From an uncultured virus (IMG/VR IMGVR_UViG_3300017761_005195) (lineage: Duplodnaviria; Heunggongvirae; Uroviricota; Caudoviricetes): a stretch of DNA of 64,000 nt. Positions 2,832 through 64,000 of this stretch are shown in pieces. Location: IMG/VR virus record IMGVR_UViG_3300017761_005195. One strand, 5' to 3'. Made by a program: the position numbers and the translations under genes. The first letter of the stretch is position 1; the number at the start of each line of letters is the position of its first letter. A model generated the notes under the pieces. It saw only the letters and a program-made list of their open reading frames with translations, searched no databases and had not been told where the DNA came from.

Positions 2832-3386
2832 TTAGATAAGAGGGATATCAATCTTTTCACCATTGGTTTTTGAGTAAACTATTTTATCAATGGTATTGAT
2901 TTTCATTTTAAAGTTTAAATCCACATAGCTATTTCCATTGCCTTTAGTTAGATACGCGACAGTAATATGTGGTTTATAGTCTGGATAAGTTGAAGTGTGT
3001 GGTAATGTTGAGGCTAACTTATTTAACTCATTTAGTTTCTCAGATTTGATATTCATTTTAAGAACATCATAATCTTTATTATAGAAACAATCCAAACCAT
3101 TTGCTTCTATATCAAAATCAGATTTCTTAATATCAGAGAACATTGCAATAACTTGTTCATCATCTACTTCTTTGTGGATGCCATAAAGAATAGTCAGATG
3201 TGGTTCAGTCTCAACACCATATCTCTCATTTTCTGGGTCAAACAAAAGATTCTTATCAATACCACCAGTGAACTTATCCCAATTCGGAAAAGTAGCATAT
3301 AACATTAAACAACCATATTCATACATAGTTCCAGATTTATCTTCTAAGATAGACATGAACTCTGAGTACCTTTTCAATCTTATCAT
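2832..3386 (-). CDS. 2H phosphoesterase, T4 57B/Acb1-like (candidate anti-CBASS nuclease)
   Basis: Two HxT motifs: EPHLTILYG and YKPHITVAYL; size and layout like T4 57B. Confidence 0.8.
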   Translation of the reverse strand: MIRLKRYSEFMSILEDKSGTMYEYGCLMLYATFPNWDKFTGGIDKNLLFDPENERYGVETEPHLTILYGIHKEVDDEQVIAMFSDIKKSDFDIEANGLDCFYNKDYDVLKMNIKSEKLNELNKLASTLPHTSTYPDYKPHITVAYLTKGNGNSYVDLNFKMKINTIDKIVYSKTNGEKIDIPLI

Positions 3387-28483: not shown

Positions 28484-29458
28484 ATGTTATGTGATTTACT
28501 TATTGATGGGAATTATCTTCTCAGCAAAATGGTTTTCACACTCCATAAGAATAATCTTTTATTTGGAGCACTACATAAAAGTTTAGAAACGGCTGTCAAT
28601 AATTACAAAAAATGGTATCCTTTCGCAAATGTTTATCTAGTTTCAGACTCAAAAGAAAAATCTTGGAGGAAGAAAATCAATACGAATTATAAGGCTAATA
28701 GAAAAAAAGACTCTGATATTGATTGGGAATTTGTTTATGAATGTTATAATGAATTCAAAACATCTTTGAAACCAAAAGGTATTAAAGTCTTAGAAGCACC
28801 TAATGTAGAAGGTGATGATTGGATTTCATTCTTGATAGAAAAGTCCAACCATGATGGTAGATCCACTATCACAGTTACTAATGACCACGATATTAAACAG
28901 TTGATTAAATATGTATTAGATCCACCATTTATTAATATCATGTCAAATGAAATGTATAGTAAACAAAAGTTATTCTTACCAAAGAATTATAAATTGTTTA
29001 TATCTAACCTAAAGAAAGAAATTGACGATGATATTTTTAATTTAAATGATAATCAAGAATTTATAAAATTACTTTCTACATTCACGGATAGATGCGAAAC
29101 ATCTGAGGTGGATCCAATGGAATCTTTGATTATAAAATTAATTTCTGGTGATACTTCTGATAATATATCATCTGCTTGGTCACAAGTAAAGAATGGTAAG
29201 AAAAGAGGAATTGCTGAGAGAGGTGCTAAATCTATATTTGATGAATATCTGACTTCATTTGGTGAACCAAGTTTGAAGGATCCTGATTTTACTGAAAATA
29301 TAGCTGATTTGATTTGTGAAAAGAAAAAGTTATCAAAGAGTTCTATTAATAATATAAAGTCAAATATTGAAGATAATATGAGATTGATATTACTAAATAC
29401 AGAATATATGCCAGATGAAATTGTTTTGAAAATGTCTAATGTTTACGAAAATATATGA
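28484..29458 (+). CDS. 5'-3' exonuclease / T4 RNase H-like
   Basis: LIDGNY, SWRK...YKANR, EGDD, NDHD, GDTSDNI. Confidence 0.9.
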   Translation: MLCDLLIDGNYLLSKMVFTLHKNNLLFGALHKSLETAVNNYKKWYPFANVYLVSDSKEKSWRKKINTNYKANRKKDSDIDWEFVYECYNEFKTSLKPKGIKVLEAPNVEGDDWISFLIEKSNHDGRSTITVTNDHDIKQLIKYVLDPPFINIMSNEMYSKQKLFLPKNYKLFISNLKKEIDDDIFNLNDNQEFIKLLSTFTDRCETSEVDPMESLIIKLISGDTSDNISSAWSQVKNGKKRGIAERGAKSIFDEYLTSFGEPSLKDPDFTENIADLICEKKKLSKSSINNIKSNIEDNMRLILLNTEYMPDEIVLKMSNVYENI

Positions 29459-48930: not shown

Positions 48931-48981
48931 ATGGGTACAAAGGTAATAATTTTATTTGAGATTTCCAAAAGGAGTTTAGAG

Positions 48982-48997
48982 TGTAGATATATGTTAG
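48982..48997 (+). other. candidate attI-like site
   Basis: TGTAGATATATGTTAG directly before a solo cassette; identical at 50835, one mismatch at 61948. Confidence 0.55.
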
Positions 48998-49003
48998 TTA
49001 TAG

Positions 49004-49183
49004 TTAATTTATCTTTATTTCCTTGTAGTATTTCTTTTTACCTTTGTAGATACAATCTTCAACATTAACATCATCACCATTTAGTTTTTTAGATAAACTA
49101 ACTATAACATCAGATATATCCAATTTTTTATCCAATGTTAATTCAACTTCTGTTCCATTTACTTCTACTTTACCTTTTATCAT
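49004..49183 (-). CDS. solo-cassette ORF (KKLDISDV leader type)
   Basis: 59 aa; body 48997-49108 bounded by GTTATAGTTAATTTATCT / AGATAAACTAACTATAAC. Confidence 0.6.
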   Translation of the reverse strand: MIKGKVEVNGTEVELTLDKKLDISDVIVSLSKKLNGDDVNVEDCIYKGKKKYYKEIKIN

Positions 49184-50130: not shown

Positions 50131-50189
50131 AAATTTATTTTAAGATTTCGTAATGATTGGTTTTTTTCACTTGCCAGTTTGGTTAAAGG
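50131..50189. repeat. direct repeat flanking the 50167-50724 gene, copy 1
   Basis: atttattttaagatttcgtaatgattggtttttttcacttgccagtttggttaaa also at about 50761-50816. Confidence 0.85.
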
Positions 50190-50760: not shown

Positions 50761-50819
50761 ATTTATTTTAAGATTTCGTAATGATTGGTTTTTTTCACTT
50801 GCCAGTTTGGTTAAAAGGT
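50761..50819. repeat. direct repeat flanking the 50167-50724 gene, copy 2
   Basis: Near-identical to 50131-50189. Confidence 0.85.
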
Positions 50820-50834
50820 GGAAAATGGGGTTAT

Positions 50835-50850
50835 TGTAGATATATGTTAG
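50835..50850 (+). other. candidate attI-like site at the head of the cassette array
   Basis: TGTAGATATATGTTAG then TTAGTAGT; first cassette starts at its final G. Confidence 0.55.
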
Positions 50851-50863
50851 TTAGTAGTAATGT

Positions 50864-51097
50864 TTATTTAGGTGTTCCTGTAATTATAACTTTACTACTA
50901 ATTTCTGATGATTTTGGATAACATTCATCCCACATTTTTTGTAGTTGTTCTGGCGTATATCTTCTTTTCAAATCTTCCAAATCATCAGAAATTGGATAGT
51001 TTGGTCTAAATCCGTTATAAACACTACTACTAACATCAGATATATGTAATTTTTTATCTGATTTATCGAGTTCTCCGCTATTATTATCTTTATCCAT
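50864..51097 (-). CDS. cassette 1 ORF (starts inside attC-like loop)
   Basis: KKLHISDVSSS reads through the TAAC core. Confidence 0.65.
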   Translation of the reverse strand: MDKDNNSGELDKSDKKLHISDVSSSVYNGFRPNYPISDDLEDLKRRYTPEQLQKMWDECYPKSSEISSKVIITGTPK

Positions 51098-51157
51098 ATT
51101 ATTTAAGTTTATTGTTTCAATTTAAGTAAAAACTACATATATCTGTAATAGTTATAA
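51028..51157 (+). repeat. attC-like site A (ISDV family)
   Basis: TAAC at CAGATATATGTA ... TACATATATCTG taata GTTA. Confidence 0.8.
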
Positions 51158-51165
51158 GTAATAAA

Positions 51166-51480
51166 TTAAAAACCAGTTTGTCTAAAATCTTTACACATCT
51201 TAGCAATTATATCTCTACTTTTGTAAGATTTTTCTATTTCTTCTTTTGATAGAAAATAAACTTCACTATTGATACAATAGTTAAGAAATAGTGATGATAT
51301 ATGTTGTAAAAATAGAAAAATCTTACTCCTAACATCATAGTCAGAAGTATCCATATTACCAATAAAAGATTTTAGAGAAACTTGAATATGAAATTCTATC
51401 TTTTCATCATCAAGTCTCAATGTTTCATCAACTATTTTTTTACTAAATTCGTAATCTTTATATTCTAATTTCATATTCAA
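51166..51480 (-). CDS. cassette 2 ORF
   Basis: About 104 aa between sites A and B. Confidence 0.65.
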   Translation of the reverse strand: MNMKLEYKDYEFSKKIVDETLRLDDEKIEFHIQVSLKSFIGNMDTSDYDVRSKIFLFLQHISSLFLNYCINSEVYFLSKEEIEKSYKSRDIIAKMCKDFRQTGF

Positions 51481-51499
51481 ATGTTTTTAATTTACATAC

Positions 51500-51553
51500 T
51501 TATAACAAATGATAAACAACATTAAAACGATTGTTTATCATCGGACGTTATGT
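51500..51553 (+). repeat. attC-like site B (short 54-bp family)
   Basis: TAAC aa ATGATAAACAA cattaaaacga TTGTTTATCAT cggac GTTA. Confidence 0.85.
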
Positions 51554-51564
51554 GTAATAATTTT

Positions 51565-51822
51565 TTATCCGCCTAACTCTGAAATTCTATTTTGAATTTT
51601 CTTTTTTAAATTAAGAAACCCCTCTTTTTGTTGTTTCTCCATTTCTTCAACAGATAGATTTCTCATTTTCGCTTTCATCTTTTTAATAACATCACTATCT
51701 TTACCAATATTATCAATATCCATATCAACATATCTTTCTAATTCTTTAAGATATTCTATATCTGTTGATTTTTCAATATCCTTATTAATGTCAAAGTTAT
51801 TAAAATTTTCTAAGTATTTCAT
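51565..51822 (-). CDS. cassette 3 ORF (MKYLENF leader)
   Basis: 85 aa with its own TATATA motif upstream. Confidence 0.65.
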   Translation of the reverse strand: MKYLENFNNFDINKDIEKSTDIEYLKELERYVDMDIDNIGKDSDVIKKMKAKMRNLSVEEMEKQQKEGFLNLKKKIQNRISELGG

Positions 51823-51887
51823 AATTTAAGTTTATTTAGTTTATATATAAAAATTCAAAATAGAAATCCCTCCCACAAAATTACTAC

Positions 51888-51941
51888 ACATAACAAATGA
51901 TAAACAACATTAAAACGATTGTTTATCATCAGACGTTATAT
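51888..51941 (+). repeat. attC-like site C (short family)
   Basis: One mismatch from site B between the cores. Confidence 0.85.
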
Positions 51942-51947
51942 TCAATT

Positions 51948-52208
51948 TTAATATTCGAATGGTTTATCCATATGTGTTTTTAATAATTGAACAAACTTTT
52001 CATAAATGATATTGAAGTCTTCATCTTCTAACTCCAATGAAGAATTTTCTTCCATTACTTTTGCTAATTGATATATCATGTCAATATCATTTATTCCAAC
52101 ACTATTTAGTGCTAAATTTGATGCTAAGATGTTTCTATTACCACAAACAGGATAATTAAGGTTTGTGTAAAAAGTTTGTTCAATTATTTTTCTTACTTTA
52201 TCTTTCAT
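51948..52208 (-). CDS. cassette 4 ORF
   Basis: 86 aa. Confidence 0.65.
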   Translation of the reverse strand: MKDKVRKIIEQTFYTNLNYPVCGNRNILASNLALNSVGINDIDMIYQLAKVMEENSSLELEDEDFNIIYEKFVQLLKTHMDKPFEY

Positions 52209-52236
52209 TGTATTTGTATTTGAATATTATAACTAA

Positions 52237-52328
52237 ATATAACAAGGTATATATGAAATACCTTATAAAGTTTATACTAAATTTAAAGTTTTGTGGTAAG
52301 GTACTTCACATATACCCAACCGTTATAA
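52237..52328 (+). repeat. attC-like site D (GGTATAT family)
   Basis: TAAC aa GGTATATATGAAATACCT ... AGGTACTTCACATATACC caacc GTTA. Confidence 0.85.
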
Positions 52329-52339
52329 GTAGTTAAGAA

Positions 52340-52424
52340 AGTGGTGGTTGGACTCGAACCAACGTCCTCCGAAATTCCTGATTGGTTACAGCAAATCGTA
52401 CTCTCCCATCTGAGTTACACCACT
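52340..52424 (-). ncRNA. tRNA-like element with expanded anticodon arm (cassette 5)
   Basis: AGTGGTG/CACCACT acceptor, ACTC/GAGT D-stem, GTTGG-TTCGAGT-CCAAC T-arm; about 30-nt anticodon region containing CTGTAAC. Confidence 0.65.
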
Positions 52425-52435
52425 TTCTTAACTAC

Positions 52436-52557
52436 TTATAACAACAAATATAAAACATTTTATTCGTTTTTCAAAATAAAGTTTATACTAATTGTCAAGT
52501 TTATTCATTTTATTTAAGTTCTGTGTTAAAACGTTTTATATTTGCAATACGTTATAG
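52436..52557 (+). repeat. attC-like site E
   Basis: TAAC aa CAAATATAAAAC ... GTTTTATATTTG caatac GTTA. Confidence 0.8.
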
Positions 52558-52566
52558 GTAATAAAA

Positions 52567-52731
52567 TTAAACCTCATACCTATAAAGTATAGTCAAAAAC
52601 GAACCACTGTCTAATATACTTATAATAGCATCCGCATCAATGTTCCTGTTTTGCAAACCTTCATCAATACGTTCAAGTTCGTTTTTCCCACAAGTAAAGT
52701 AACCAATTCTTTTTTTAATAGTAATATTCAT
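52567..52731 (-). CDS. cassette 6 ORF
   Basis: 54 aa (MNITIKKRIGYFTC...), below the ORF-track cutoff. Confidence 0.55.
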   Translation of the reverse strand: MNITIKKRIGYFTCGKNELERIDEGLQNRNIDADAIISILDSGSFLTILYRYEV

Positions 52732-52750
52732 AATGTTTAATTTTACATAC

Positions 52751-52844
52751 CTATAACAAAGTGTATAAGAAAGTTTGCTACAGCAGTTGTGATAATTTGA
52801 AAATTAGTTTAAGCAAACCTTCTCATACACCCAATCCGTTATAT
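52751..52844 (+). repeat. attC-like site F
   Basis: TAAC aa aGTGTATaAGAAaGTTTGCT ... AGCAAACcTTCTcATACACc caatcc GTTA. Confidence 0.8.
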
Positions 52845-52848
52845 TCAA

Positions 52849-53049
52849 TTAAATTATTGTTTTGATTTTTAATAACTTATCAGATATTCTATAATCCTCG
52901 TTTTTATTATGATATTTTATCAATTCATCTATTTCATTATTTGAGACTTCCAAACCTTCTCTTAGTATCTGATAAGTTTTCCAAACCATTGAAAAATTAT
53001 TGTGTGATGATTTAAAACCATCCATTTCTATTTTATCTAATATATCCAT
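52849..53049 (-). CDS. cassette 7 ORF b
   Basis: 66 aa. Confidence 0.6.
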   Translation of the reverse strand: MDILDKIEMDGFKSSHNNFSMVWKTYQILREGLEVSNNEIDELIKYHNKNEDYRISDKLLKIKTII

Positions 53050-53050
53050 C

Positions 53051-53176
53051 TTAATCTTTAAATTTGAATAAGTCTTTTAATTTACCTGACCATGTTGTAT
53101 CTATACAACGCATCAATATAAATATAATAAACCACAATATAATACCACCTAAAATTAAAAGACTTATTTTTATCAT
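53051..53176 (-). CDS. cassette 7 ORF a, small membrane protein
   Basis: 41 aa hydrophobic ORF coupled to ORF b. Confidence 0.5.
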   Translation of the reverse strand: MIKISLLILGGIILWFIIFILMRCIDTTWSGKLKDLFKFKD

Positions 53177-53217
53177 AAACAAGATTTTTATAATTTGTAA
53201 AACAATAATTTAACTAA

Positions 53218-53303
53218 ATATAACAACAAATATAAGAAATAAATTTTGATTTATCTAGTTTTTTATAGGAAAAATTTACTTCTCATATTTGCAAACGTTA
53301 GGT
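53218..53303 (+). repeat. attC-like site G (CAAATATAAGAA family)
   Basis: TAAC aa CAAATATaAGAAaTAAAT ... ATTTAcTTCTcATATTTG caaac GTTA. Confidence 0.85.
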
Positions 53304-53492
53304 TCAATCATTAATTTGTTTTGAACGTTCTATTACTTTCTTCAATAATTCATCTTTCCATTTAGAAAATATTTCAACCGACCTGTCTGTTGTATCAGTT
53401 TGGTATAATGATGAGTAATATCCTTTATCAAAGAATTCACCACAAATATTTTCTAATTCACTTTCTGTTAAAATTACAAATCCCTTTTCCAT
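53304..53492 (-). CDS. cassette 8 ORF
   Basis: MEKGFVIL start; own TACCTTTG promoter at 53517-53524. Confidence 0.6.
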   Translation of the reverse strand: MEKGFVILTESELENICGEFFDKGYYSSLYQTDTTDRSVEIFSKWKDELLKKVIERSKQIND

Positions 53493-53542
53493 ATTATTTA
53501 TTGTTTTTAATTTATACAAAGGTAAAACAAATTAATGACAAA

Positions 53543-53596
53543 ACCTAACAAATGATAAACAACATTAAAACGATTGTTTATCATCAGACGTTATGT
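53543..53596 (+). repeat. attC-like site H (short family)
   Basis: Same internal sequence as site C. Confidence 0.85.
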
Positions 53597-53776
53597 TTAA
53601 TTATTATAATATTTTGACATTTTTTTATCAACATCACTAATTTTTATTCCAATTTTAGTTATCCAATCACTAAATTTATTACTTGAAATTAATGTAGTAA
53701 TTAATGATAATATTACTATTATAATTGTAATAAAAATTAAAATAACCCACCACATTATCCCTATTATTTTTTTCAT
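53597..53776 (-). CDS. cassette 9 ORF, membrane protein
   Basis: MKKIIGIMWWVILIF hydrophobic helix. Confidence 0.6.
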   Translation of the reverse strand: MKKIIGIMWWVILIFITIIIVILSLITTLISSNKFSDWITKIGIKISDVDKKMSKYYNN

Positions 53777-53801
53777 ATTGTAAAATATTATAATAACTAA
53801 A

Positions 53802-53855
53802 ACATAACAACAAATATATTGCATTAAAACGACAATATATTTGCAACCGTTATAT
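53802..53855 (+). repeat. attC-like site I (short-family loop, different arms)
   Basis: TAAC aa CAAATATATTG cattaaaacga CAATATATTTG caacc GTTA. Confidence 0.85.
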
Positions 53856-53861
53856 GAAATA

Positions 53862-54065
53862 TTAATTTTTAGAGTGCCAGTCCCATTTTGTAATCCAACA
53901 TACTTCCAAATTCTTCATCAACCAACCTCTCGATATTTTACCATTTTCGTCAAATATACTCTTTATTTTACTAATTTGATATGAAGAATTTGTAACCCAT
54001 CCTATCCAAGCTTCATCATAACCTTCAAGTTTAACCTTGTCGCCAATTTTAAGTTCTGTAATCAT
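53862..54065 (-). CDS. cassette 10 ORF
   Basis: 67 aa, LKIGDKV SH3-like start. Confidence 0.6.
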   Translation of the reverse strand: MITELKIGDKVKLEGYDEAWIGWVTNSSYQISKIKSIFDENGKISRGWLMKNLEVCWITKWDWHSKN

Positions 54066-54093
54066 ATTATTTAGTTTTAAAAATTAATACATC

Positions 54094-54178
54094 ATATAAC
54101 AACAAATATAAGAAATAAATCTTACTTTGTCTATTTTTTAATGAAAAGATTTACTTCTCATATTTGCAACCGTTAGAA
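54094..54178 (+). repeat. attC-like site J (CAAATATAAGAA family)
   Basis: Near-identical to site T. Confidence 0.85.
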
Positions 54179-54191
54179 GTAATAAAATAAA

Positions 54192-54449
54192 TTATATATC
54201 AAACTTCTCTGATTCAAGTTTTTTAATCTTTCTATCAAGTATTTCATTAAACTCTTCAGTTGAAATATTATATCCCTTAATTCTTTCAAACATAGATTTC
54301 AAAACTTGAATCGCATAGTCAATCTGACCATTTATTATTTCCTTTTCCATATCATCCATAGATTCATTTATTTTACTACTTCTAACATCAGATATATTCA
54401 AGTTTTCTTCTGACTCGTTAAATCTTTTTATGTGTTTTAAATCTTTCAT
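54192..54449 (-). CDS. cassette 11 ORF (leader encoded in attC-like loop)
   Basis: MKDLKHIKRFNESEENLNISDV reads through the core. Confidence 0.65.
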   Translation of the reverse strand: MKDLKHIKRFNESEENLNISDVRSSKINESMDDMEKEIINGQIDYAIQVLKSMFERIKGYNISTEEFNEILDRKIKKLESEKFDI

Positions 54450-54513
54450 CTTCGTAAGTTATTTTTTAGTATATATTAAAAGAAAACCTAAATATATCTG
54501 AGTATCGTTATGT
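54380..54513 (+). repeat. attC-like site K (ISDV family, carries promoter and start codon)
   Basis: TAAC at CAGATATATT ... AATATATCTG agtatc GTTA; TAATATATA on minus strand in loop. Confidence 0.8.
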
Positions 54514-54582
54514 GTAAGTGTTCCGTTCATCATTCTAATTAACATTTAGGTAGAAAATTTTTAAAGAAAAACCCGCCACACA

Positions 54583-55008
54583 TTATAAAAAAGATTGACC
54601 ATCCCAACCATAAACCACACCGTATTCATCAACCATTAAACCTAATTTTCTTGCTAAATCATCAGCCTTATAATCATTTGGTAATCTCCCAAATAATGCT
54701 TCATCATCACTTGGAGAATCTAATCTTTGAACTTGCCAATAATACCCATTCAACTTTTTACCATTAAAAGTTCTCTCACTGTGATATTTCTCGTTTGGTG
54801 CTTCTGTATCGGAATCGAATACAGCCCAACCTTGTTTATGAGTATAATCACTATATTCACTTTGAAACCAATCTATGAATTTTTTAATTTTATCAAAATC
54901 ATAAAATATTTTATCATCAAAGTCTTTCAAATTACCATCCTTATCAATATATGATTCATTCAAAAACTCTCGTATGGTTGTTTTAATAAATTGTTTTAAG
55001 TCTTTCAT
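54583..55008 (-). CDS. cassette 12 ORF (MKDLKQFIKTTIREFLNE leader)
   Basis: 141 aa. Confidence 0.7.
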   Translation of the reverse strand: MKDLKQFIKTTIREFLNESYIDKDGNLKDFDDKIFYDFDKIKKFIDWFQSEYSDYTHKQGWAVFDSDTEAPNEKYHSERTFNGKKLNGYYWQVQRLDSPSDDEALFGRLPNDYKADDLARKLGLMVDEYGVVYGWDGQSFL

Positions 55009-55120
55009 CCTTTTCTTTTATATATAAATATTAAGAATTAAAATACCAACCCTTCTTTTTCTTTTAAAATTTTTGTTCAGTTCTTCGAATAAACATTTTA
55101 CCTTAATAATCCACACCTAT

Positions 55121-55174
55121 ACATAACAAAGTGTAAAAAACATTAAAACGATTTTTTACACTCAACCGTTATAA
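55121..55174 (+). repeat. attC-like site L (short-family loop)
   Basis: TAAC aa AGTGTAAAAAA cattaaaacga TTTTTTACACT caacc GTTA. Confidence 0.85.
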
Positions 55175-55184
55175 AACATAAAAA

Positions 55185-55379
55185 TTATTGCGGTTCTAAC
55201 TGAGCAATATGGAATGCAAATATATAACCATTTATTTTTCCATCATACATTGTATCCATACCAGACCATTGTCTTCCTTCAATAACAATTCCATAATGCT
55301 CATTTCGCTTATCTATAACTTTGAACTTTGATAATTTGCCTTTAAGTTTATCCATATAATACATAATTTTTACATTCAT
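55185..55379 (-). CDS. cassette 13 ORF
   Basis: Up to 64 aa; start codon uncertain. Confidence 0.55.
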   Translation of the reverse strand: MNVKIMYYMDKLKGKLSKFKVIDKRNEHYGIVIEGRQWSGMDTMYDGKINGYIFAFHIAQLEPQ

Positions 55380-55470
55380 ATAACAAGGTATATGTGAAAT
55401 ACCTCATAAAGTTTCTACTAATTATTTAAGTTTCGTGGTAAGGTACTTCACATATACCCAACCGTTATAA
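55378..55470 (+). repeat. attC-like site M (GGTATAT family)
   Basis: Near-identical to sites D and R. Confidence 0.85.
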
Positions 55471-55653
55471 GCCATTTTGGGAACCCCACTCTTGAAACAA
55501 CTTTTCCAGTTCTTCACAGTCATATACAGGCTCATCGCTTTCTCCCATAGTTACTGTCCAATTTTCACTTGAGTGCCTTGTGTATTTGTTTAGTTCGTTT
55601 TCATCTGTTTCAACATAAAAAACGATTGACTTTGTTGCGTTTATAATTTTCAT
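55465..55653 (-). CDS. cassette 14 ORF
   Basis: 62 aa; stop codon is the TTA of the GTTA core. Confidence 0.65.
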   Translation of the reverse strand: MKIINATKSIVFYVETDENELNKYTRHSSENWTVTMGESDEPVYDCEELEKLFQEWGSQNGL

Positions 55654-55682
55654 TTTATTTTAAATTTGTGAAGAAAAACGGC

Positions 55683-55814
55683 TTATAACAGCACATACCC
55701 AAAAGAGGGGTTTTAGTGGTTATATGAACATTTTTACTTCGATTAAACATTTGTTTTTATATTAAATTTTGTGCTTCGTAATCACCTCCTTCGGGTATCT
55801 GCAAAATGTTATGA
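55683..55814 (+). repeat. attC-like site N
   Basis: TAAC aGCAcATACCC..AAGAGG ... CCTCcTTcGGGTATcTGC aaaat GTTA. Confidence 0.75.
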
Positions 55815-56030
55815 AACATATTTCCACACACCTATTTCCATAAACAAGTACTTTAGTGATTTGATTCTTCTATCCAAGTTATCATAATCAAAAGAATCGT
55901 TGCATTTACTTATGTTAATTTTTGCTTGTTTATATTCATCTATCAACTCTTCAATACGTTTCATAACATCAGATATATGTAATTTTTTATCTGTGTCATT
56001 AACTTCTGTGTTCTTATTTTCTGTATTCAT
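55809..56030 (-). CDS. cassette 15 ORF (starts in attC-like loop)
   Basis: DKKLHISDVMKR; stop codon in the GTTA core. Confidence 0.65.
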   Translation of the reverse strand: MNTENKNTEVNDTDKKLHISDVMKRIEELIDEYKQAKINISKCNDSFDYDNLDRRIKSLKYLFMEIGVWKYVS

Positions 56031-56090
56031 ATTATTTAATTTTTGTATTTCAATTTAAGAAAAAACTACATATATCTGTGTCCGTTATAA
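55961..56090 (+). repeat. attC-like site O (ISDV family)
   Basis: Paralogous to site A. Confidence 0.8.
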
Positions 56091-56105
56091 GTAATAAAAA
56101 TAAAA

Positions 56106-56288
56106 TTATTGATATAACACATATATACCTTCATAATCACCAAAAATAGTTAATTTTTCATTTGGTATATTGTAATCAAATTTTAGTCTATTACCTTCTG
56201 TGTCCCATACATCAGTTATGTATTCCGCTTTGATGAAAAATAAACTATTATTTCCATCATATTCTTTTCTTATTAATCTTGTTTTCAT
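56106..56288 (-). CDS. cassette 16 ORF
   Basis: 60 aa. Confidence 0.6.
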   Translation of the reverse strand: MKTRLIRKEYDGNNSLFFIKAEYITDVWDTEGNRLKFDYNIPNEKLTIFGDYEGIYVLYQ

Positions 56289-56312
56289 TTGTATAATTTT
56301 ATTTTTACATAC

Positions 56313-56422
56313 TTATAACAATGTGTAAAAAACATTTAAACGATTTTTTACACGCCAAAAAGCGGTTTTACATTTATTTAAGTTTTTCGGTGGCGTACCT
56401 CTCATATACGCAACCGTTAGCA
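56313..56422 (+). repeat. attC-like site P (hybrid of two families)
   Basis: Left part is a short-family hairpin; right end ctcatatacgcaaccGTTA resembles the long families. Confidence 0.65.
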
Positions 56423-56701
56423 GTAATTGCTAAGAGCCTTGATATTAATAAATCCTATTTCTTGGGCGTGTTCCATTGAAAAACTAACTGTGTAAACCTT
56501 CAACCCTTTTTCAATTGTTACTTTAACCATTGAACTAAAACTATCTATAAATATATTAGTTACATTATGGGTTATATCTTTACCTTCTTTTACATCGTAA
56601 AACCCTACACCCCAAGAAATAACACAACCGCAACTACTGCTAACAATAGGTTTATTCAATGCGGGGTTCCTGCTCCCAAATAACATTTTTAGTAATTTCA
56701 T
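56417..56701 (-). CDS. cassette 17 ORF (starts in attC-like loop)
   Basis: NPALNKPIVSSS reads through the core. Confidence 0.6.
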   Translation of the reverse strand: MKLLKMLFGSRNPALNKPIVSSSCGCVISWGVGFYDVKEGKDITHNVTNIFIDSFSSMVKVTIEKGLKVYTVSFSMEHAQEIGFINIKALSNYC

Positions 56702-56767
56702 ATTTTCTGCTTTTAAATTAATTTATCTGTTCAATCCCGCACTAAATAAACCTGCAAAACGTTATAA
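56638..56767 (+). repeat. attC-like site Q
   Basis: TAAC aa tAGGTTTATT..aTGCGGG ... CCCGCAc..AATAAACCTg caaaac GTTA. Confidence 0.8.
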
Positions 56768-56956
56768 AACATTTTTCAATACACCAAGTTCCTTTGATTT
56801 TACTAAAAATTCTGTTTCATCTTCCAAAGAAAGAGTTGAAAACAAATGATGTTCTACTAAATAAGATGGTGCGTTTGATGTAACCAAATCATTTAATTTA
56901 GCTTTATCCCAGAATTTTTCAACTCTTTCTTCTTGTTCTTTTGTTAATTTTTCCAT
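56762..56956 (-). CDS. cassette 18 ORF
   Basis: 64 aa; stop codon in core. Confidence 0.65.
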   Translation of the reverse strand: MEKLTKEQEERVEKFWDKAKLNDLVTSNAPSYLVEHHLFSTLSLEDETEFLVKSKELGVLKNVL

Positions 56957-56967
56957 ATTAAAACGTT

Positions 56968-57060
56968 TTATAACAAGGTATATGTGAAATACCTTATAAA
57001 GTTTCTACTAATTTTTAAAGTTTTGTGGTAAGGTACTTCACATATACCCAACCGTTAGTG
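56968..57060 (+). repeat. attC-like site R (GGTATAT family)
   Basis: Near-identical to sites D and M. Confidence 0.85.
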
Positions 57061-57074
57061 ATAATAAATTTGAA

Positions 57075-57386
57075 TTATTTAGTCTTATATAACTTACAAT
57101 CAAAATTATTTTCAGATAACATATCATTCATAAATCCGATGTGTCTATTTTCATCACCCTCTGGTTCAAATTTCACAAAAATGGAATAGTTATCTGAAAC
57201 TAATAGTGACCAATCCATAGGTTTTAATTTAACAGAATCATCATAATTTTGATTGATAAAGTTTATACCATCCAAAATCTCATCCATATCTGGACCTATC
57301 ATTTCAAATTTACTATCACTAACATTAGATATATTCAAGTTTTCTTGATGTTCGTTAAATAATTTAACGTGTTTTAAATTTTTCAT
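57075..57386 (-). CDS. cassette 19 ORF (leader in attC-like loop)
   Basis: MKNLKHVKLFNEHQENLNISNV. Confidence 0.65.
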   Translation of the reverse strand: MKNLKHVKLFNEHQENLNISNVSDSKFEMIGPDMDEILDGINFINQNYDDSVKLKPMDWSLLVSDNYSIFVKFEPEGDENRHIGFMNDMLSENNFDCKLYKTK

Positions 57387-57450
57387 CTTTGTTTATTATT
57401 TTTTAGTATATATTAAAAGAAAATCTAAATATATCTGAGTATCGTTATAT
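57317..57450 (+). repeat. attC-like site S (ISDV family)
   Basis: Paralogous to site K, including the promoter and leader. Confidence 0.8.
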
Positions 57451-57463
57451 TCAATACCAAAAA

Positions 57464-57703
57464 TTATTCAAATTCTATAATAAAAAAATCATCGAAGTCC
57501 ATATCACCAGCACCGTAAGTATAATTCACTTTCAGTTTTGTTTCAGATATTATATCATATCCATCATAAGCGTGATATGTTCCAATCGGTTTTTCTTCAT
57601 TACTAAATCGTTCAATATACTTACTACGAGCAAAGTCATTTACTACTGCTCTATGATTAGCAACCTTAGCTAATACTTCTAATGATTTTTTTATATTTTC
57701 CAT
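57464..57703 (-). CDS. cassette 20 ORF
   Basis: 79 aa. Confidence 0.65.
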   Translation of the reverse strand: MENIKKSLEVLAKVANHRAVVNDFARSKYIERFSNEEKPIGTYHAYDGYDIISETKLKVNYTYGAGDMDFDDFFIIEFE

Positions 57704-57726
57704 GTGTTAATAATTTTTGATACTAA

Positions 57727-57812
57727 ATATAACAACAAATATAAGAAATAAATCTTAATTTGTCTAATTTTTTAATGAAAAGATTTACTTCTCATATTTG
57801 CAACCGTTAGTG
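57727..57812 (+). repeat. attC-like site T (CAAATATAAGAA family)
   Basis: Near-identical to site J; last site of the continuous array. Confidence 0.85.
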
Positions 57813-57964
57813 GCAATTTGAGCCAAATAAAAAATTATATTCGTTCATATACCATTTTTCGTCTATTGAATGTTGTATAAATCTAAGTGGATGCGTACCG
57901 GCATCATGCCATGTTGCCCAGGTCATAAAACAAAGATAAGGGAAATAAGTTAGAAAAACAAATA

Positions 57965-58004
57965 AAAAAAAATAGTTAAGAGTATTTCTTAACTATTTTT
58001 TTTT
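57965..58004. terminator. probable terminator
   Basis: A-run TAGTTAAGA..TCTTAACTA T-run, downstream of 58027-58521. Confidence 0.6.
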
Positions 58005-58026
58005 ATAAGTTCCTCCTTGGTCATTA

Positions 58027-58521
58027 TTATTCCCAGCTGTCTCGTACTGGTCTTCCTCTGTCTCTCCACTCTTTATCAGCTTTTACACTCTTACCTGGAA
58101 TGACTTTACCATTTGACCATTTCTCCCATACATCACCATTGAGCTGATATACCTCTACTCCACTAACGTTAACCTTATTCTTAAAATCATTAACTATAGT
58201 ATCATAATCACCAGGTCCTCTAAACTCTGGTAGGTCAGGGAAAGTATCATGAACGATTCCAAAGATTCCATCAGGTTGAAATCCTTTACCTCCCATTCCA
58301 AGTGGAACTTTAACACCAAATTCTGAGTTTAGTTCTGACTTACTTATCATATCTACATTTTTTTGATTTTCACTAGGTATTCTTAACTTATCAAAAATCA
58401 CCTTCTTACAAGCAAGTTCAAAACTATACTCATTATCACGACTTTCTTGTCCACCAAATTCGTCATAGGCACTACCACCCTGAGCCTCATTAACAAACTT
58501 ATTGAATTTCTTAATAATCAT
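58027..58521 (-). CDS. hypothetical protein with IKKFNKFVNE leader
   Basis: 164 aa; AATATATA upstream. Confidence 0.7.
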   Translation of the reverse strand: MIIKKFNKFVNEAQGGSAYDEFGGQESRDNEYSFELACKKVIFDKLRIPSENQKNVDMISKSELNSEFGVKVPLGMGGKGFQPDGIFGIVHDTFPDLPEFRGPGDYDTIVNDFKNKVNVSGVEVYQLNGDVWEKWSNGKVIPGKSVKADKEWRDRGRPVRDSWE

Positions 58522-58590
58522 ATATTGTTATATTTTTTTTTATATATTTAATTGAAAAAACAGATTATTTAATTCTAATATAGAATGTTT

Positions 58591-58818
58591 TTATGAGTTT
58601 TTTATTTCTGATAATTTGCTTATAACATTATCAATTACACCTTTACAAAAATCTCTTTCCAAAGTTAATGTAAGTGCTTGTTCAGCATCTATTCCAACGC
58701 CATTTGACGCTCTTTCAATTATTTGTTCATCTGTAAGCATTCCAAATTCTGCAAGATGCTTCATCAAGTCATTTTGCGTTGGAAATAGTTTTCCTAATAT
58801 GTGTCCACTTTCATTCAT
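58591..58818 (-). CDS. hypothetical protein
   Basis: 75 aa. Confidence 0.55.
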   Translation of the reverse strand: MNESGHILGKLFPTQNDLMKHLAEFGMLTDEQIIERASNGVGIDAEQALTLTLERDFCKGVIDNVISKLSEIKNS

Positions 58819-58905
58819 ATTTGATTTGGTTTTAATTTACTAAATTAAAAATTAGAGGCATCTACTAATAGTTTATCTAAATAGTCTTTAGTAAAAAACT
58901 CTTCA

Positions 58906-59100
58906 TCACTCATAATTACATTTATCACATATTCGCTCTCTAACATCATAAGTTAGATTTTCTTCATTCTCTTGAATTGTGAGTTCCAACCCACAAACAC
59001 AGCACATAACATCAGATAAACTCAATTTTTTATCGAGCAATCCAACTCTATTCAAGTGCTGATTTAACCAATTGTTTTTGTAATATATTTTCTTTTCCAT
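58906..59100 (-). CDS. cassette-type ORF starting in attC-like loop, Zn-ribbon-like
   Basis: KKLSLSDVMCCVC...CDKC. Confidence 0.55.
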   Translation of the reverse strand: MEKKIYYKNNWLNQHLNRVGLLDKKLSLSDVMCCVCGLELTIQENEENLTYDVRERICDKCNYE

Positions 59101-59133
59101 AATAAAAACTGAGTTTATCTGCAACCGTTATAA
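59004..59133 (+). repeat. attC-like site U
   Basis: TAAC at CAGATAAACTCA ... TGAGTTTATCTG caacc GTTA. Confidence 0.8.
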
Positions 59134-59149
59134 GTAATAAAAACTAAAA

Positions 59150-59371
59150 TTAAACTACCCCAACTTTATATATAGTTCTATTACCTAAATTTTCTTTTGA
59201 AAAACTTTTAATTACATCATTATTTTTGTGTGAAATAGCTTCCACATCCGAATTGTTTTTAAATTCTTCTAACACTTTACTTAATCTGTTAAAATATATT
59301 TGATTCCACAAAAATATACTAGTCCATCGTAAGTTTTTCAAAATAAAATCTGTTAATTTAGTTCTTTTCAT
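59150..59371 (-). CDS. cassette ORF
   Basis: 73 aa inside body 59127-59638 with matching ends. Confidence 0.6.
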   Translation of the reverse strand: MKRTKLTDFILKNLRWTSIFLWNQIYFNRLSKVLEEFKNNSDVEAISHKNNDVIKSFSKENLGNRTIYKVGVV

Positions 59372-59388
59372 TTGTTCAATTTTTAAAA

Positions 59389-59604
59389 TTATTTACCATA
59401 TATACTATTAACAAAAACTCTATTAGCACCTATTGTAAGTGATAGTTGATTTTGTTCTTTCATGAGTGTCTCAAATTGATTTTCTATTTTTAATCTATCT
59501 GAATTACTTTTTAACATATTAACCAATTTTTCCAACTCTATATCTCTTTTTGAAGTTAGAAAATCAATTTGTTCATTGTAATTTAATTCGAGTTTTTGTT
59601 CCAT
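59389..59604 (-). CDS. cassette ORF
   Basis: 71 aa in the same two-gene cassette. Confidence 0.6.
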   Translation of the reverse strand: MEQKLELNYNEQIDFLTSKRDIELEKLVNMLKSNSDRLKIENQFETLMKEQNQLSLTIGANRVFVNSIYGK

Positions 59605-59631
59605 TTATATAATTTTTTTAGTTTTTACTAC

Positions 59632-59668
59632 TTATAACAACAAATATAAGAAATAAATCTTACTTTGT
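59632..59668 (+). repeat. truncated attC-like site V
   Basis: Left arm of the J/T family only. Confidence 0.7.
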
Positions 59669-59778
59669 TTAAGTTCTGTAATCATATTATTTATTTTTCT
59701 AAAACCGCCACTTTTATAAAAAGTCTTTAGTAAAGGTAAGGAAATATTCTATCAATTCCAAATTTATTTTCCTGTATA

Positions 59779-59913
59779 TTATTCATATATATCAAAGGCA
59801 TCAATACCAACCATAGGGTCAAAATCTTCTTTAATATTTTCACTACTTCTAACATCAGATATATTCAATTCTGAGTTCTCGTTAAATCTTTTTATATGTT
59901 TTAAATCTTTCAT
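59779..59913 (-). CDS. short or remnant ORF with MKDLKHIKRFNE..LNISDV leader
   Basis: 44 aa; contains attC-like left arm at 59847. Confidence 0.45.
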   Translation of the reverse strand: MKDLKHIKRFNENSELNISDVRSSENIKEDFDPMVGIDAFDIYE

Positions 59914-60007
59914 CTCCTTTATTACATTTTATGTATATATTAAAAGAAAACCCAACAAATGTTTATCCGAAATAGATTTTAATATATAATGAAAATTGAA
60001 AAACTTT

Positions 60008-60649
60008 ATGAAGTATTTACAAAAATTTGAAAATTTTGATTCTACAAACGAGGAAATAAATCTCAAAAAGGCTTTAATTGGAGGGGCTATGGCCGGTGCT
60101 ATTGGATATGGAGTTTATCAAACCTCTCAGATAAATAAATTTGCTAAATTAGAAGATACTGAAGTTATATCAGGAATGAAGTTTAATCAATATGATGTTT
60201 ATGTAAATGATAAAACATTTAACTTAAATATATCAGAAGATGGTATTATTTCAGCAGAATGGTCTGAAGAGGATGAAAAAAATACTAACACATATAATTG
60301 TATAACTATACCAAATAAAACTCAAAAAATATGGATATCTTCAAATATGGATATGGATAATGGAATTTTTGTAAGTGGGAAACCAATTCCAGGTAGTGAA
60401 AGTATTTCTATTTCTGATTTAGATATTTATGACCAATCAGAAACTTATATAATTTATGAATCTCCTATGTTTTCTTCTGTTAATTATATTATTATGAATA
60501 AAGAACATAAACAAGGAGAAGATTTTGAGATTGAAAATAAAATGGGAAAATATATTTGTGATGAGTTAGATTCAAAAATATATATTTTCACCTTTAAAAG
60601 CTTCGGTGATGGGTCAATGGGTGGTGCTGGATCGGAAAGTGATTATTAA
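60008..60649 (+). CDS. hypothetical protein with MKYLQKFENF leader and hydrophobic segment
   Basis: NEEINLKKALIGGAMAGAIG; TAATATATA upstream. Confidence 0.7.
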   Translation: MKYLQKFENFDSTNEEINLKKALIGGAMAGAIGYGVYQTSQINKFAKLEDTEVISGMKFNQYDVYVNDKTFNLNISEDGIISAEWSEEDEKNTNTYNCITIPNKTQKIWISSNMDMDNGIFVSGKPIPGSESISISDLDIYDQSETYIIYESPMFSSVNYIIMNKEHKQGEDFEIENKMGKYICDELDSKIYIFTFKSFGDGSMGGAGSESDY

Positions 60650-60650
60650 A

Positions 60651-60676
60651 ATATAACAAATGATAAACAACATTAG
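60651..60676 (+). repeat. attC-like half site (short family)
   Basis: ATATAACAAATGATAAACAACATTA with no right arm. Confidence 0.7.
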
Positions 60677-61765: not shown

Positions 61766-61947
61766 CTTTGTATTATAGTTTGATTTATATATAAATTTAA
61801 CAAAAACCAATTATTTAATCCTACCCAGGTTGATTTATTTTATCTGATTGATACAAAGTATAACCTAAACTAATTCATTTGACTGGCGACCCCTTTCTGA
61901 AAGAAATAGTCACTCTTTGACTCCCTCGGTAGAGGGTAGAGGTGATT

Positions 61948-61963
61948 TGTAGATATGTGTTAG
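61948..61963 (+). other. candidate attI-like site
   Basis: TGTAGATATGTGTTAG before solo cassette body 61963-62120. Confidence 0.55.
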
Positions 61964-61976
61964 TTAGAAGTAATGA

Positions 61977-62306
61977 TTAGACACCATCAGTTGGGTCTAT
62001 ACCCAAAAATATACAAATTCTGTATGATGTATCTGACCAAATACCTAAACCTCTATCAACATCGTTCATAAATTGTTGCAATTCACCCTTTGTGAGTGTA
62101 ATAGTATCACTACTTCTAACATCAGATATATTCAAGTTTCCCAATACCTCACTTTTTGTGGGTTTCATAACTTCACCACCACCCATTTCTGGCTTTAGAT
62201 TGTCAATCATATAAGGTCTTAATTTTCTACCTGTTGGAACTTCTGGTACTTGTCCAGAACCTTCCGCTGATTGGAATGTAGCTTCAAATGTCTTTAGGTG
62301 TTTCAT
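61977..62306 (-). CDS. chimeric ORF: MKHLKTFE leader fused through NLNISDV core to a cassette body
   Basis: 109 aa; GTTAGAAGTAATGAT / ATCACTACTTCTAAC ends. Confidence 0.65.
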   Translation of the reverse strand: MKHLKTFEATFQSAEGSGQVPEVPTGRKLRPYMIDNLKPEMGGGEVMKPTKSEVLGNLNISDVRSSDTITLTKGELQQFMNDVDRGLGIWSDTSYRICIFLGIDPTDGV

Positions 62307-63583: not shown

Positions 63584-63669
63584 ACCACTGGTGGGATTTG
63601 AACCCCAAAGACCTTGCGTATCGGTCACCCTCCTGTTCGTCCGTTCCAAACGTAACTTACATCAGTGGT
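63584..63669 (-). ncRNA. degenerate tRNA-like element
   Basis: ACCACTG/CAGTGGT closing stem and GGG-TTCAAAT-CCC T-arm; D and anticodon arms non-canonical. Confidence 0.4.
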
Positions 63670-63725
63670 TTTTAATCAATAGGGGGATTACGAATCCCTA
63701 GAACAGGTACTCCTATTGAAGTTTG

Positions 63726-63828
63726 TAGTCAGGACAGGATTCGAACCTGCGGTCATCAGGGTATAGGTACTAGGTTACCACCCCTCAGACTCTTCCTAGT
63801 TAGCGTTAGCCCACTCCGCCACCTGACT
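63726..63828 (-). ncRNA. tRNA-like element with expanded anticodon region
   Basis: AGTCAGG/CCTGACT acceptor, TGGCGGAGTGGGCTAACGC D-arm, GCAGG-TTCGAAT-CCTGT T-arm; ACTAGG/CCTAGT stem with about 20-nt loop. Confidence 0.6.
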
Positions 63829-64000
63829 ATACCTTTTACTTTTTAATCAAGTCTGCAATCAATCTACTTTTTTCAATCATTGAAAGCTTACCATCATCTA
63901 GTAATTTTAAAGTTTGATAAACTTTAAACTCATCCTCTGAAAAGTTTTCAGATCCTGTTTCTTTCATCCAATCAATTTTTGATTGAACAGTGTCTAGGTT

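What the first reader, a model, noticed from the sequence alone, without database searches (positions are those of the whole stretch)
50850..57733. Every cassette body has its own extended terminal inverted repeat with a fixed mismatch at position 11
Seen in sequence: complementarity between the two ends of each body runs about 12-28 nt, well beyond a 7-bp R box, and is unique to each cassette. Examples (left end vs reverse complement of right end): GTTAGCAGTAATTGC vs GTTAGCAGTAGTTGC; GTTAGTGATAATAAATTTGAA vs GTTAGTGATAGTAAATTTGAA; GTTAGGTTCAATCATTAATTTGTTTT vs GTTAGGTTTTGTCATTAATTTGTTTT. By my count 19 of 20 left ends have A at position 11. It faces a C on the right end in register in 14 cases and shifted by one extra base in 5. 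The same pattern occurs at 48997, 59127 and 61963. This gives an A-C mismatch on the top strand and a T-G pair on the bottom. The stop codon usually lies within this repeat, and in cassettes 14, 15, 17 and 18 it is the TTA of the core. Inference: an outer ssDNA stem with a programmed mismatch is part of the recognition site, or is a footprint of how cassettes are built. This is not part of the classical attC model as I know it.
Basis: partly seen in the sequence, partly recalled or inferred. Interest (0 to 1): 0.88.

Follow-up and report, generated by a model that had tools for sequence, protein, structure and literature searches.

The report
Wobble-marked ends of phage gene cassettes
Each small swappable gene cassette in this large phage has two ends that pair with each other around one fixed mismatch, which most likely completes the folded DNA site that an integron-like enzyme cuts and tells it which strand to use.

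Summary
Confirmed. Each of the 20 cassette bodies pairs best with its own other end (20 of 20). A at position 11 faces C in register in 14 and one base shifted in 5; the tRNA cassette is the exception. The pattern holds in 427 other cassettes picked without using these ends (A in 99-100%).

The same A/C mismatch sits at the mirror position of the inner hairpin (487 of 505 viral sites). The site therefore has two 11-bp recombinase arms, each with a T-G pair on the bottom strand only. The full stem forms only in the excised circle, so it should matter for insertion more than excision.

The array starts at an attI-like site beside an 11-codon remnant of a Xer-like recombinase whose relatives lack the IntI insertion. 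Homologous bodies carry different hairpin cores, switching right after AAC (12 of 32 families).

Vibrio cassettes also pair privately to about 10-12 bp, but without a fixed mismatch. I did not find this design in the papers searched. This scan has noted it, and core swapping, on other DNA before. No activity was measured.

The parts
50763..50798 (-). 5' remnant of the array recombinase gene: GTG start, 11 codons, then a stop
   Evidence: 9 of 11 residues identical to the recombinase N-terminus of related phage record G006, at the same 51-nt distance from the crossover
50135..50170 (-). Second copy of the recombinase 5' remnant
50833..50861 (+). attI-like insertion site (11-bp arm, 7-bp centre, 11-bp arm from cassette 1); crossover G|TT between 50850 and 50851
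   Evidence: Same platform with a different first cassette in L387; motif found 34-51 nt upstream of recombinases in related phages. The arm/centre split is my inference.
50850..51034 (.). Body 1: 18-bp stem, A/C in register; 77-aa ORF on minus strand starting inside core 1
51151..51506 (.). Body 2: 23-bp stem, shifted class
51547..51894 (.). Body 3: 18-bp stem, in register; identical body in L011 behind another neighbour
51935..52243 (.). Body 4: 26-bp stem, in register
52322..52442 (.). Body 5: tRNA-Tyr(GTA) gene at 52337-52425 on minus strand; G at position 11, no mismatch
52551..52757 (.). Body 6: 22-bp stem, shifted class
52838..53224 (.). Body 7: 26-bp stem, in register
53297..53549 (.). 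Body 8: 26-bp stem, in register; same ends and core on a 280-bp body in L079
53590..53808 (.). Body 9: 26-bp stem, shifted class; ORF starts inside core 9
53849..54100 (.). Body 10: 23-bp stem, in register
54172..54386 (.). Body 11: 21-bp stem, in register; ORF starts inside core 11
54507..55127 (.). Body 12: 15-bp stem, in register; homologues carry other cores in L326/L031 and L357
55168..55384 (.). Body 13: 21-bp imperfect stem, shifted class
55464..55689 (.). Body 14: 15-bp stem; stop codon is the core TTA
55808..55967 (.). Body 15: 15-bp stem; stop is the core TTA; 80% homologue with the same first 15 bases at both ends in L366
56084..56319 (.). Body 16: 26-bp stem, shifted class; its core (56320-56415) looks chimeric and failed the detector
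56416..56644 (.). Body 17: 15-bp stem; stop is the core TTA; ORF starts inside core 17
56761..56974 (.). Body 18: 15-bp stem; stop is the core TTA; 97% copies in L195 and L208 behind other neighbours
57054..57323 (.). Body 19: 21-bp stem, in register; ORF starts inside core 19
57444..57733 (.). Body 20: 25-bp stem; first cassette at an attI-like site in L185/L372; unrelated 40-nt core in L200/L191
51035..57805 (+). 20 hairpin cores of 40-120 nt between bodies: 51035-51150, 51507-51546, 51895-51934, 52244-52321, 52443-52550, 52758-52837, 53225-53296, 53550-53589, 53809-53848, 54101-54171, 54387-54506, 55128-55167, 55385-55463, 55690-55807, 55968-56083, 56320-56415, 56645-56760, 56975-57053, 57324-57443, 57734-57805. 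Layout: AAC, 2 nt, 12-bp stem, A ... C, stem, 5-6 nt, GTT.
48980..49108 (+). Second attI-like site followed by a 112-bp body (48997-49108) and only the left part of a core
59011..59638 (+). Detached core (59011-59126) and body (59127-59638); 98% copy inside the array of G006
61946..62120 (+). Third attI-like site followed by a 158-bp body (61963-62120) and only the left part of a core

Best explanation
The terminal repeats are the two halves of the outer arm of each cassette's own recombination site, in an integron-like system run by a compact Xer-type tyrosine recombinase without the IntI insertion. Shown: when a body and its core are closed into a circle, the ends join the core into one long hairpin with two mirror-image 11-bp arms. 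Each arm has a fixed A/C at position 11, which is a T-G pair on the bottom strand and a true mismatch on the top. Cassettes move as units cut at G|TT. Inferred: one monomer binds each arm and needs the T at position 11 on the strand it cuts. Keeping C rather than T at the partner position makes the top-strand hairpin and the double-stranded site poor substrates. The fixed pair would thus select the strand and the orientation of insertion, the job that extrahelical bases and the I2 domain do in classical integrons. Every cassette passes through the circle to be inserted, which selects for private pairing to about 15 bp. Occasional exchange at the other AAC (top strand) swaps cores between bodies and leaves the private stem intact. 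In this window the recombinase gene is deleted, so the array is frozen or served in trans.
For: Pairing and mismatch: (143 of 143 distinct end types have A at 11; 107 face C in register, 36 shifted, none Watson-Crick, against 31% A and 18% C in body DNA). Mirror mismatch in the inner arm, outside the 12 bp used for detection: 487 of 505 viral and 44 of 48 cellular sites. The outer and inner consensus agree at positions 3, 4, 5, 8, 10, 11 and 12. The A/C pair is also present at 573 of 606 composite array junctions. Folding: bottom strand more stable in 19 of 20 circle junctions (mean -22.4 vs -19.3 kcal/mol); the circle is more stable than the array junction in 20 of 20, by 9.2 kcal/mol on average. 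Recombinase link: 55 of 62 viral recombinase loci have a divergent site within 3 kb, against 3 on the same strand; remnant and attI-like site in the window. No IntI insertion in relatives. Mobility at G|TT: 6 of 21 window bodies found full length elsewhere, all behind other neighbours. Core change right after AAC in 12 of 32 body families.
Against: No activity, binding or circle was observed. Stem stability in the circle is partly circular reasoning, since the ends were shown to pair beforehand. The folding model already pairs the TTA core on both strands of the circle (20 of 20), so energy alone does not select the strand there. Cassette 5 lacks the mismatch yet sits in the array. Array junctions lack the private stem, and only 13 of 20 fold the TTA core on the bottom strand with probability above 0.5, so excision must tolerate a poor outer arm. 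The extension to 18-26 bp (98 of 315 viral, 0 of 32 cellular) is not explained. Only 14 of 64 cellular recombinase loci had a site upstream and none of 70 had the phage attI motif. Loci were found with window-derived patterns or related recombinases, so they are not an unbiased sample.
Confidence: 0.68

Rival explanations
1. Footprint of cassette building. The ends are copied from each other by fold-back or template switching when a cassette is made or repaired. The stem has no role in recognition beyond about 7 bp, and position 11 is a by-product of the copying.
For: Viral stem lengths are two-peaked, with a mode at 15 and a ceiling near 26-28. Identical cores sit on unrelated, self-matching ends (104 pairs among 37 cassettes). 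Many long stems are A/T-rich and differ between cassettes.
Against: A copying scar would not place the same mismatch at the mirror position of the inner arm, nor keep it in 143 of 143 end types. The sharp drop after position 15 (0.81 to 0.48 viral, 0.66 to 0.16 cellular) fits a structural limit. This reading may still be right for positions 16-26.
Confidence: 0.13
2. Two separately conserved binding motifs. The recombinase reads A-T at one end and A-C at the other on double-stranded DNA, as Xer enzymes read dif arms. The mismatch is incidental and no single-strand fold is needed.
For: The recombinase is closest to XerA/XerC/XerD models. Exchange at AAC could occur on this double-stranded half-site.
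Against: Private, sequence-variable complementarity between distant ends and within cores has no use on double-stranded DNA. The right half has a 9-10 bp centre. Other mismatches also lean to G-T on the bottom strand (42 vs 15 in viral outer stems, with 145 of other kinds).
Confidence: 0.1
3. RNA-level or homologous-recombination device. The ends pair in the transcript or act as terminators, and genes are shuffled by homologous recombination between repeated cores, as with PeSLs of T4-type phages.
For: The T-G-bearing strand is also the coding strand here, so G-U pairs would form in RNA. Cores are repeated, some identically. The window and several related records lack an intact recombinase.
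Against: In cellular arrays most genes lie on the other strand (20 of 27 with an ORF call) while the mismatch keeps the same polarity. Moved cassettes break exactly at G|TT next to unrelated cores. The arrays sit beside a recombinase and an attI-like site.
Confidence: 0.05
4. Chance pairing in A/T-rich DNA.
For: The region is about 26-28% G+C; 6% of cross pairs in the window reach 18 bp by the X-drop rule.
Against: No permutation of 20,000 came near the observed match; replicated in 427 other cassettes.
Confidence: 0.01

Closest known systems
Classical integrons (IntI, attI, attC cassettes); strand selection at attC (Nivina et al. 2016, PMC5027507, passages read)
   Same: Divergent tyrosine recombinase, attI-like site, cassettes cut at G|TT, hairpin sites whose bottom strand folds better, partly through G:T pairs. 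R''/R' pair fully only within one cassette; 35 Vibrio cassettes pair privately to about 10-12 bp.
   Different: Fixed A/C at position 11 in both arms; 15-bp edge; no extrahelical base in the 12-bp inner stem; spacer of 2 versus 5-6 nt; recombinase without the I2 insertion; genes antisense to the top strand in phages; cores often replaced at AAC.
Phage CALINs, especially Polaribacter phage P12002L (Qi et al. 2023, PMC9892861; results part 2, passages and supplement rows read)
   Same: P12002L holds this class of site: 8 detected on the plus strand, each followed by A at position 11. Its attC1 shares the 11-nt loop of the window's 40-nt cores.
   Different: In the passages I read the paper treats them as ordinary attC sites, cloned with 7-bp boxes. 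attC1 was the only one of six that IntI1 did not recombine. I saw no mention of an outer stem, a fixed mismatch or another recombinase in those passages.
CTXphi integration by host XerCD through a folded single strand (as described in PMC4792948, passage read)
   Same: A Xer-type enzyme without I2 acting on a folded single strand whose stem mimics double-stranded DNA and has no extrahelical bases.
   Different: CTXphi uses the host enzymes and one chromosomal dif site. Here a dedicated recombinase sits beside arrays of many variable sites.
PeSL cassettes of T4-type phages (PMC2839356, abstract only)
   Same: Repeated stem-loops between small accessory phage genes, linked to gene shuffling and small circles.
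   Different: The abstract describes promoter-terminator repeats; it mentions no site-specific recombinase, GTT/AAC crossover or paired cassette ends.

Membership tests
Classical integron | Integrase with the IntI-specific insertion (I2, intI_Cterm) | tested here: not met
   Two array recombinases from related phages score 138 bits against TIGR02249 (cut-off 265), in two stretches. Against VchIntIA (2a3v), 37 query residues stand where it has 85. The window keeps only 11 codons.
Classical integron | attI site beside a divergent recombinase, first cassette joined at G|TT | tested here: met
   (34 of 76 viral loci carry the strict motif)
Classical integron | R boxes RYYYAAC / GTTRRRY | tested here: not met
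   GTTA is invariant, but position 5 is T in 15 of 20
Classical integron | Unpaired central spacer of 5-6 nt on each arm | tested here: not met
   2 nt on one arm and 5-6 on the other in 19 of 20 window sites; the definition is from PMC5027507
Classical integron | Two or three extrahelical bases near L'' | tested here: not met
   Ungapped 12-bp inner stem in 19 of 20 sites. An extra base occurs only next to the fixed mismatch, on the other arm, in 91 of 505 viral sites.
Classical integron | Bottom strand folds more stably, with a G:T bias | tested here: met
   19 of 20 for circle and for array junctions
Classical integron | Cassettes move as units bounded by G|TT | tested here: met
   6 of 21 window bodies found full length behind other neighbours
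Classical integron | Genes mostly read along the top strand | tested here: not met
   19 of 19 ORF calls in the window and 304 of 313 in viral loci are antisense; 20 of 27 cellular ones are sense
Classical integron | Single-strand exchange resolved by replication | not testable with these tools
   Needs an assay
CALIN (attC cluster without integrase) | Two or more sites with no intact integrase nearby | tested here: met
   No recombinase among 80 window ORFs or by tblastn. The rest of the genome is not held.
Xer/dif or CTXphi-type site | Two 11-bp arms around a 6-8 bp centre, acted on by host XerCD | tested here: inconclusive
   Arm length fits (dif layout recalled); the centre is 6 nt on one side and 9-10 on the other; host enzyme use not testable
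PeSL | Strong early promoter plus terminator stem-loop | not tested
   No promoter or terminator scan was run

The most novel reading that the evidence does not exclude
A distinct integron-like system in which a Xer-type enzyme without I2 reads two symmetric T-G pairs instead of extrahelical bases, and cuts at both AAC triplets. The heritable unit would be the body with its private terminal repeat, and hairpin cores, some carrying start codons, would be exchangeable modules. That would decouple a gene from its recombination site and give a testable route by which new gene-site combinations arise.
Probability: 0.4. Interest if true: 0.82.

Novelty: new variant of a known kind. Interest (0 to 1): 0.6.

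Why it matters
Integron integrases are defined by an insertion that holds extrahelical bases and blocks the second strand exchange (PMC4792948, passages). [quoted passage not shown] A related system that seems to get strand choice from a fixed T-G pair would show another way to recombine folded single strands. It would also be a candidate intermediate between Xer and IntI.

Core exchange at AAC bears on how cassettes acquire their sites, which both papers call unexplained. The position-11 rule gives a simple signature for finding these arrays.

A 2026 Riemerella paper reports homology-independent integration of a gene with an attC-like 3' hairpin by an unknown mechanism (PMC13148043, section 11 read). 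I did not check whether that site belongs to this class.

Tried and rejected
No whole genome is held for the window, so a recombinase elsewhere in this phage could not be sought.

No Pfam hit for the cassette ORFs scanned (cassette 6's 54-aa ORF was not among them). PHROGs gave one weak hit, cassette 1 to a terminase family at E 2e-5, which I did not trust.

A search for relatives of the gene at 58027-58521 found none.

My Vibrio site pattern found no sites in the V. anguillarum phage record L373, so the classical control rests on one Vibrio record. Some of its 35 spans may cover more than one cassette, which lowers its match rate.

Sequencing runs: no RNA holder listed. Four runs were laid, all as contigs. 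The listed joints have short sides or come from repeats and other phages, and none could be read as a clean excision (101 joints were not shown).

Three of four loci with the window's attI variant (L385, L386, L388) had no array behind it and look like chance matches.

Cultured Freya and Ingeline phages carry a roughly 35% identical recombinase. The Ingeline region had no detected site, and the Freya region had three scattered ones.

Literature searches listed no paper on this design, judged from listings and abstract starts. Most subscription papers and bioRxiv supplements are outside the library. One search opened an unrelated paper.


Full report
Setting. The window looks like part of a large phage: gp32-like protein, topoisomerase subunits, DnaK and an RNA ligase, with no recombinase among 80 ORFs scanned. 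A related record is 464 kb. A Bacteroidota host is my inference from the closest named relatives of the recombinase and from the same sites in a Polaribacter phage. The nine sequencing runs with the largest share of the array are freshwater metagenomes.

Observation. I paired 20 left ends (GTTA) with 20 right ends (TAAC) by eye. Own pairs match at 294 of 420 positions (5-25); 20,000 permutations give a mean of 166 and a maximum of 216. Each left end ranks its own right end first, 20 of 20. Position 11 is A in 19; it faces C in register in 14 and shifted by one in 5. Cassette 5, a tRNA-Tyr gene, has a perfect pair. Stems run 15-26 bp, and 14 different hexamers occur at positions 5-10, so ends fall into small families. 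The stop-codon claims hold.

Replication. I wrote a detector that uses only the cores and the 12-bp inner stem. It finds 19 of the 20 junctions and gives 1-3 hits on each of three shuffled windows. I ran it on all 372 loci then held, which came from three window-derived patterns and from recombinase relatives. It gave 671 spans and 427 after removing duplicates: 393 viral from 93 loci, 34 from 13 genome loci, some of which may be prophage or mis-binned contigs. Position 11 is A in 99% and 100%. Among spans whose ends match at 4 or more of positions 5-10 (315 and 32; the other 80 were left out of this count), A faces C in register in 238 and 25, shifted in 68 and 6, otherwise in 9 and 1. Taking one cassette per distinct hexamer gives 143 of 143 with A and none with a Watson-Crick partner. 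Stem length peaks at 15 bp (108 of 315 viral, 17 of 32 cellular); 98 viral and no cellular stems reach 18 or more, with a ceiling near 26-28.

The base just beyond the 12-bp inner stem is A in 98% of 505 viral sites and faces C in register in 396 and shifted in 91; cellular 36 and 8 of 48. Numbered from the third stem base, the inner and outer consensus agree at positions 3, 4, 5, 8, 10, 11 and 12. The folded site therefore has two 11-bp arms, each closed by a T-G pair on the bottom strand. In both arms the A is the near-invariant side and the partner varies in register. By standard tyrosine-recombinase chemistry (established knowledge), the strand bearing the complementary T is the one cut. 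That fits a T readout, which is inference.

Folding. Circle junctions modelled from the window fold at a mean of -22.4 kcal/mol on the bottom strand and -19.3 on the top; array junctions at -13.3 and -11.3. The bottom strand is more stable in 19 of 20 in both sets. The TTA core pairs with probability above 0.5 in all 20 circles on both strands, but in only 13 (bottom) and 4 (top) array junctions. The private stem belongs to the circle, the substrate for insertion. The A/C pair itself is present at 573 of 606 composite junctions.

The enzyme and platform. Related arrays start beside a divergent recombinase of about 265-275 aa. Of 62 viral recombinase loci with enough DNA, 55 have a divergent site within 3 kb and 3 have one on the same strand; 34 of 76 carry a strict attI-like motif. 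For genome loci the figures are 14 of 64 and 0 of 70. The two proteins tested lack the IntI insertion. Record G006 has the window's platform with a different first cassette. Its recombinase starts 51 nt from the crossover; the window has the first 11 codons at the same distance and then a stop. Two of five records searched and three of five had no match, and one more had only a short one, so arrays without an intact enzyme are common.

Mobility and core exchange. Six of 21 window bodies occur full length in other phages, always behind another neighbour, with the break at G|TT. Identical cores sit on unrelated bodies in 104 pairs, identity falling from 1.0 to 0.3-0.5 within two bases outside TAAC. 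The Vibrio control has the same shared-core, private-end pattern, so this alone proves little. The reverse test is stronger: among 766 unique junctions, 32 families share a body end, and 12 of them carry different core stems, usually diverging 1-3 bases after AAC. These include window bodies 12 and 20. Two of the 12 are weak: one differs only within the 40-nt family, and one may be a shared end motif rather than one cassette. Exchange at G|TT cannot change a body-core join; exchange at the top-strand AA|C can. Illegitimate joins filtered by selection for both stems would give the same picture, and I cannot separate the two.

Classical comparison. In 35 cassettes of a Vibrio superintegron, private pairing is strong at positions 8-10 (70 of 105 vs 33 by permutation), fades by 11-12, and is absent at 12-15 (26 of 140 vs 31). 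Position 11 is A in only 54%, with no fixed partner. So pairing beyond 7 bp is shared; the fixed mismatch and the 15-bp edge are not. Nivina et al. report 1.24 G:T pairs per bottom strand versus 0.39 per top strand, and top-strand recombination 1,000-10,000 times rarer (PMC5027507, passages). In the passages I read of a paper on synthetic sites, the features named are the R box and the apical stem (PMC7439510). Qi et al. tested a P12002L site with the same 11-nt loop as the window's 40-nt cores, one base longer and cloned with 7-bp boxes; it was the only one of six that IntI1 did not recombine. That is one site, and the second P12002L site, which did recombine on its bottom strand, appears to be an atypical inverted junction.

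Verdict. The feature is real and best read as the outer arm of a twofold-symmetric folded site in an integron-like system that fails several defining tests of classical integrons. The strand-selection role is inferred, not shown. The searches listed under Tried and rejected found no paper describing it. This scan has noted the same ends, the missing insertion and core swapping on other genomes; those notes are unchecked and are not counted as support. I saw the inner mismatch and the core swaps before reading the notes on them.

Noticed in passing
L389 1500-2900 (record G006): The recombinase gene of the closest relative is split by a 261-aa GIY-YIG-type homing endonuclease ORF on the opposite strand, and about 60 central codons have no match.
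   Followed up: partly
window 51035-51150, 53809-53848, 54387-54506, 55968-56083, 56645-56760, 57324-57443: ORFs of cassettes 1, 9, 11, 15, 17 and 19 start inside the core and read through the AAC arm, so a core swap would change their N-termini.
   Followed up: partly
window 52322-52442: A tRNA-Tyr gene is carried as a cassette, and it is the only one without the mismatch.
   Followed up: no
window 56320-56415: Core 16 looks like a nearly complete 40-nt core fused to the right arm of another family.
   Followed up: no
window 57806-60670: Decayed end of the array: an unmatched left end at 57806, unmatched right ends at 59010 and 59853, and a half core after 60657.
   Followed up: no
window 48980-49108 and 61946-62120: Two further attI-like sites, each with one body and only half a core.
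   Followed up: partly
L374 29200-41000 (Polaribacter phage P12002L): At least nine bodies with paired ends, several carrying DNA methyltransferase genes; the left end at 29237 follows an inverted left arm, as expected from a wrong-strand event.
   Followed up: partly
window 2832-3386: Protein with an Acb1 (anti-CBASS) Pfam hit, E 1e-8.
   Followed up: no
window 63590-63830: Two or three tRNA-like stretches seen by eye that neither ARAGORN nor Rfam called.
   Followed up: no
L186 and L030: Bodies as short as 75 bp, near-identical in two phages but followed by cores that differ in their inner parts.
   Followed up: no
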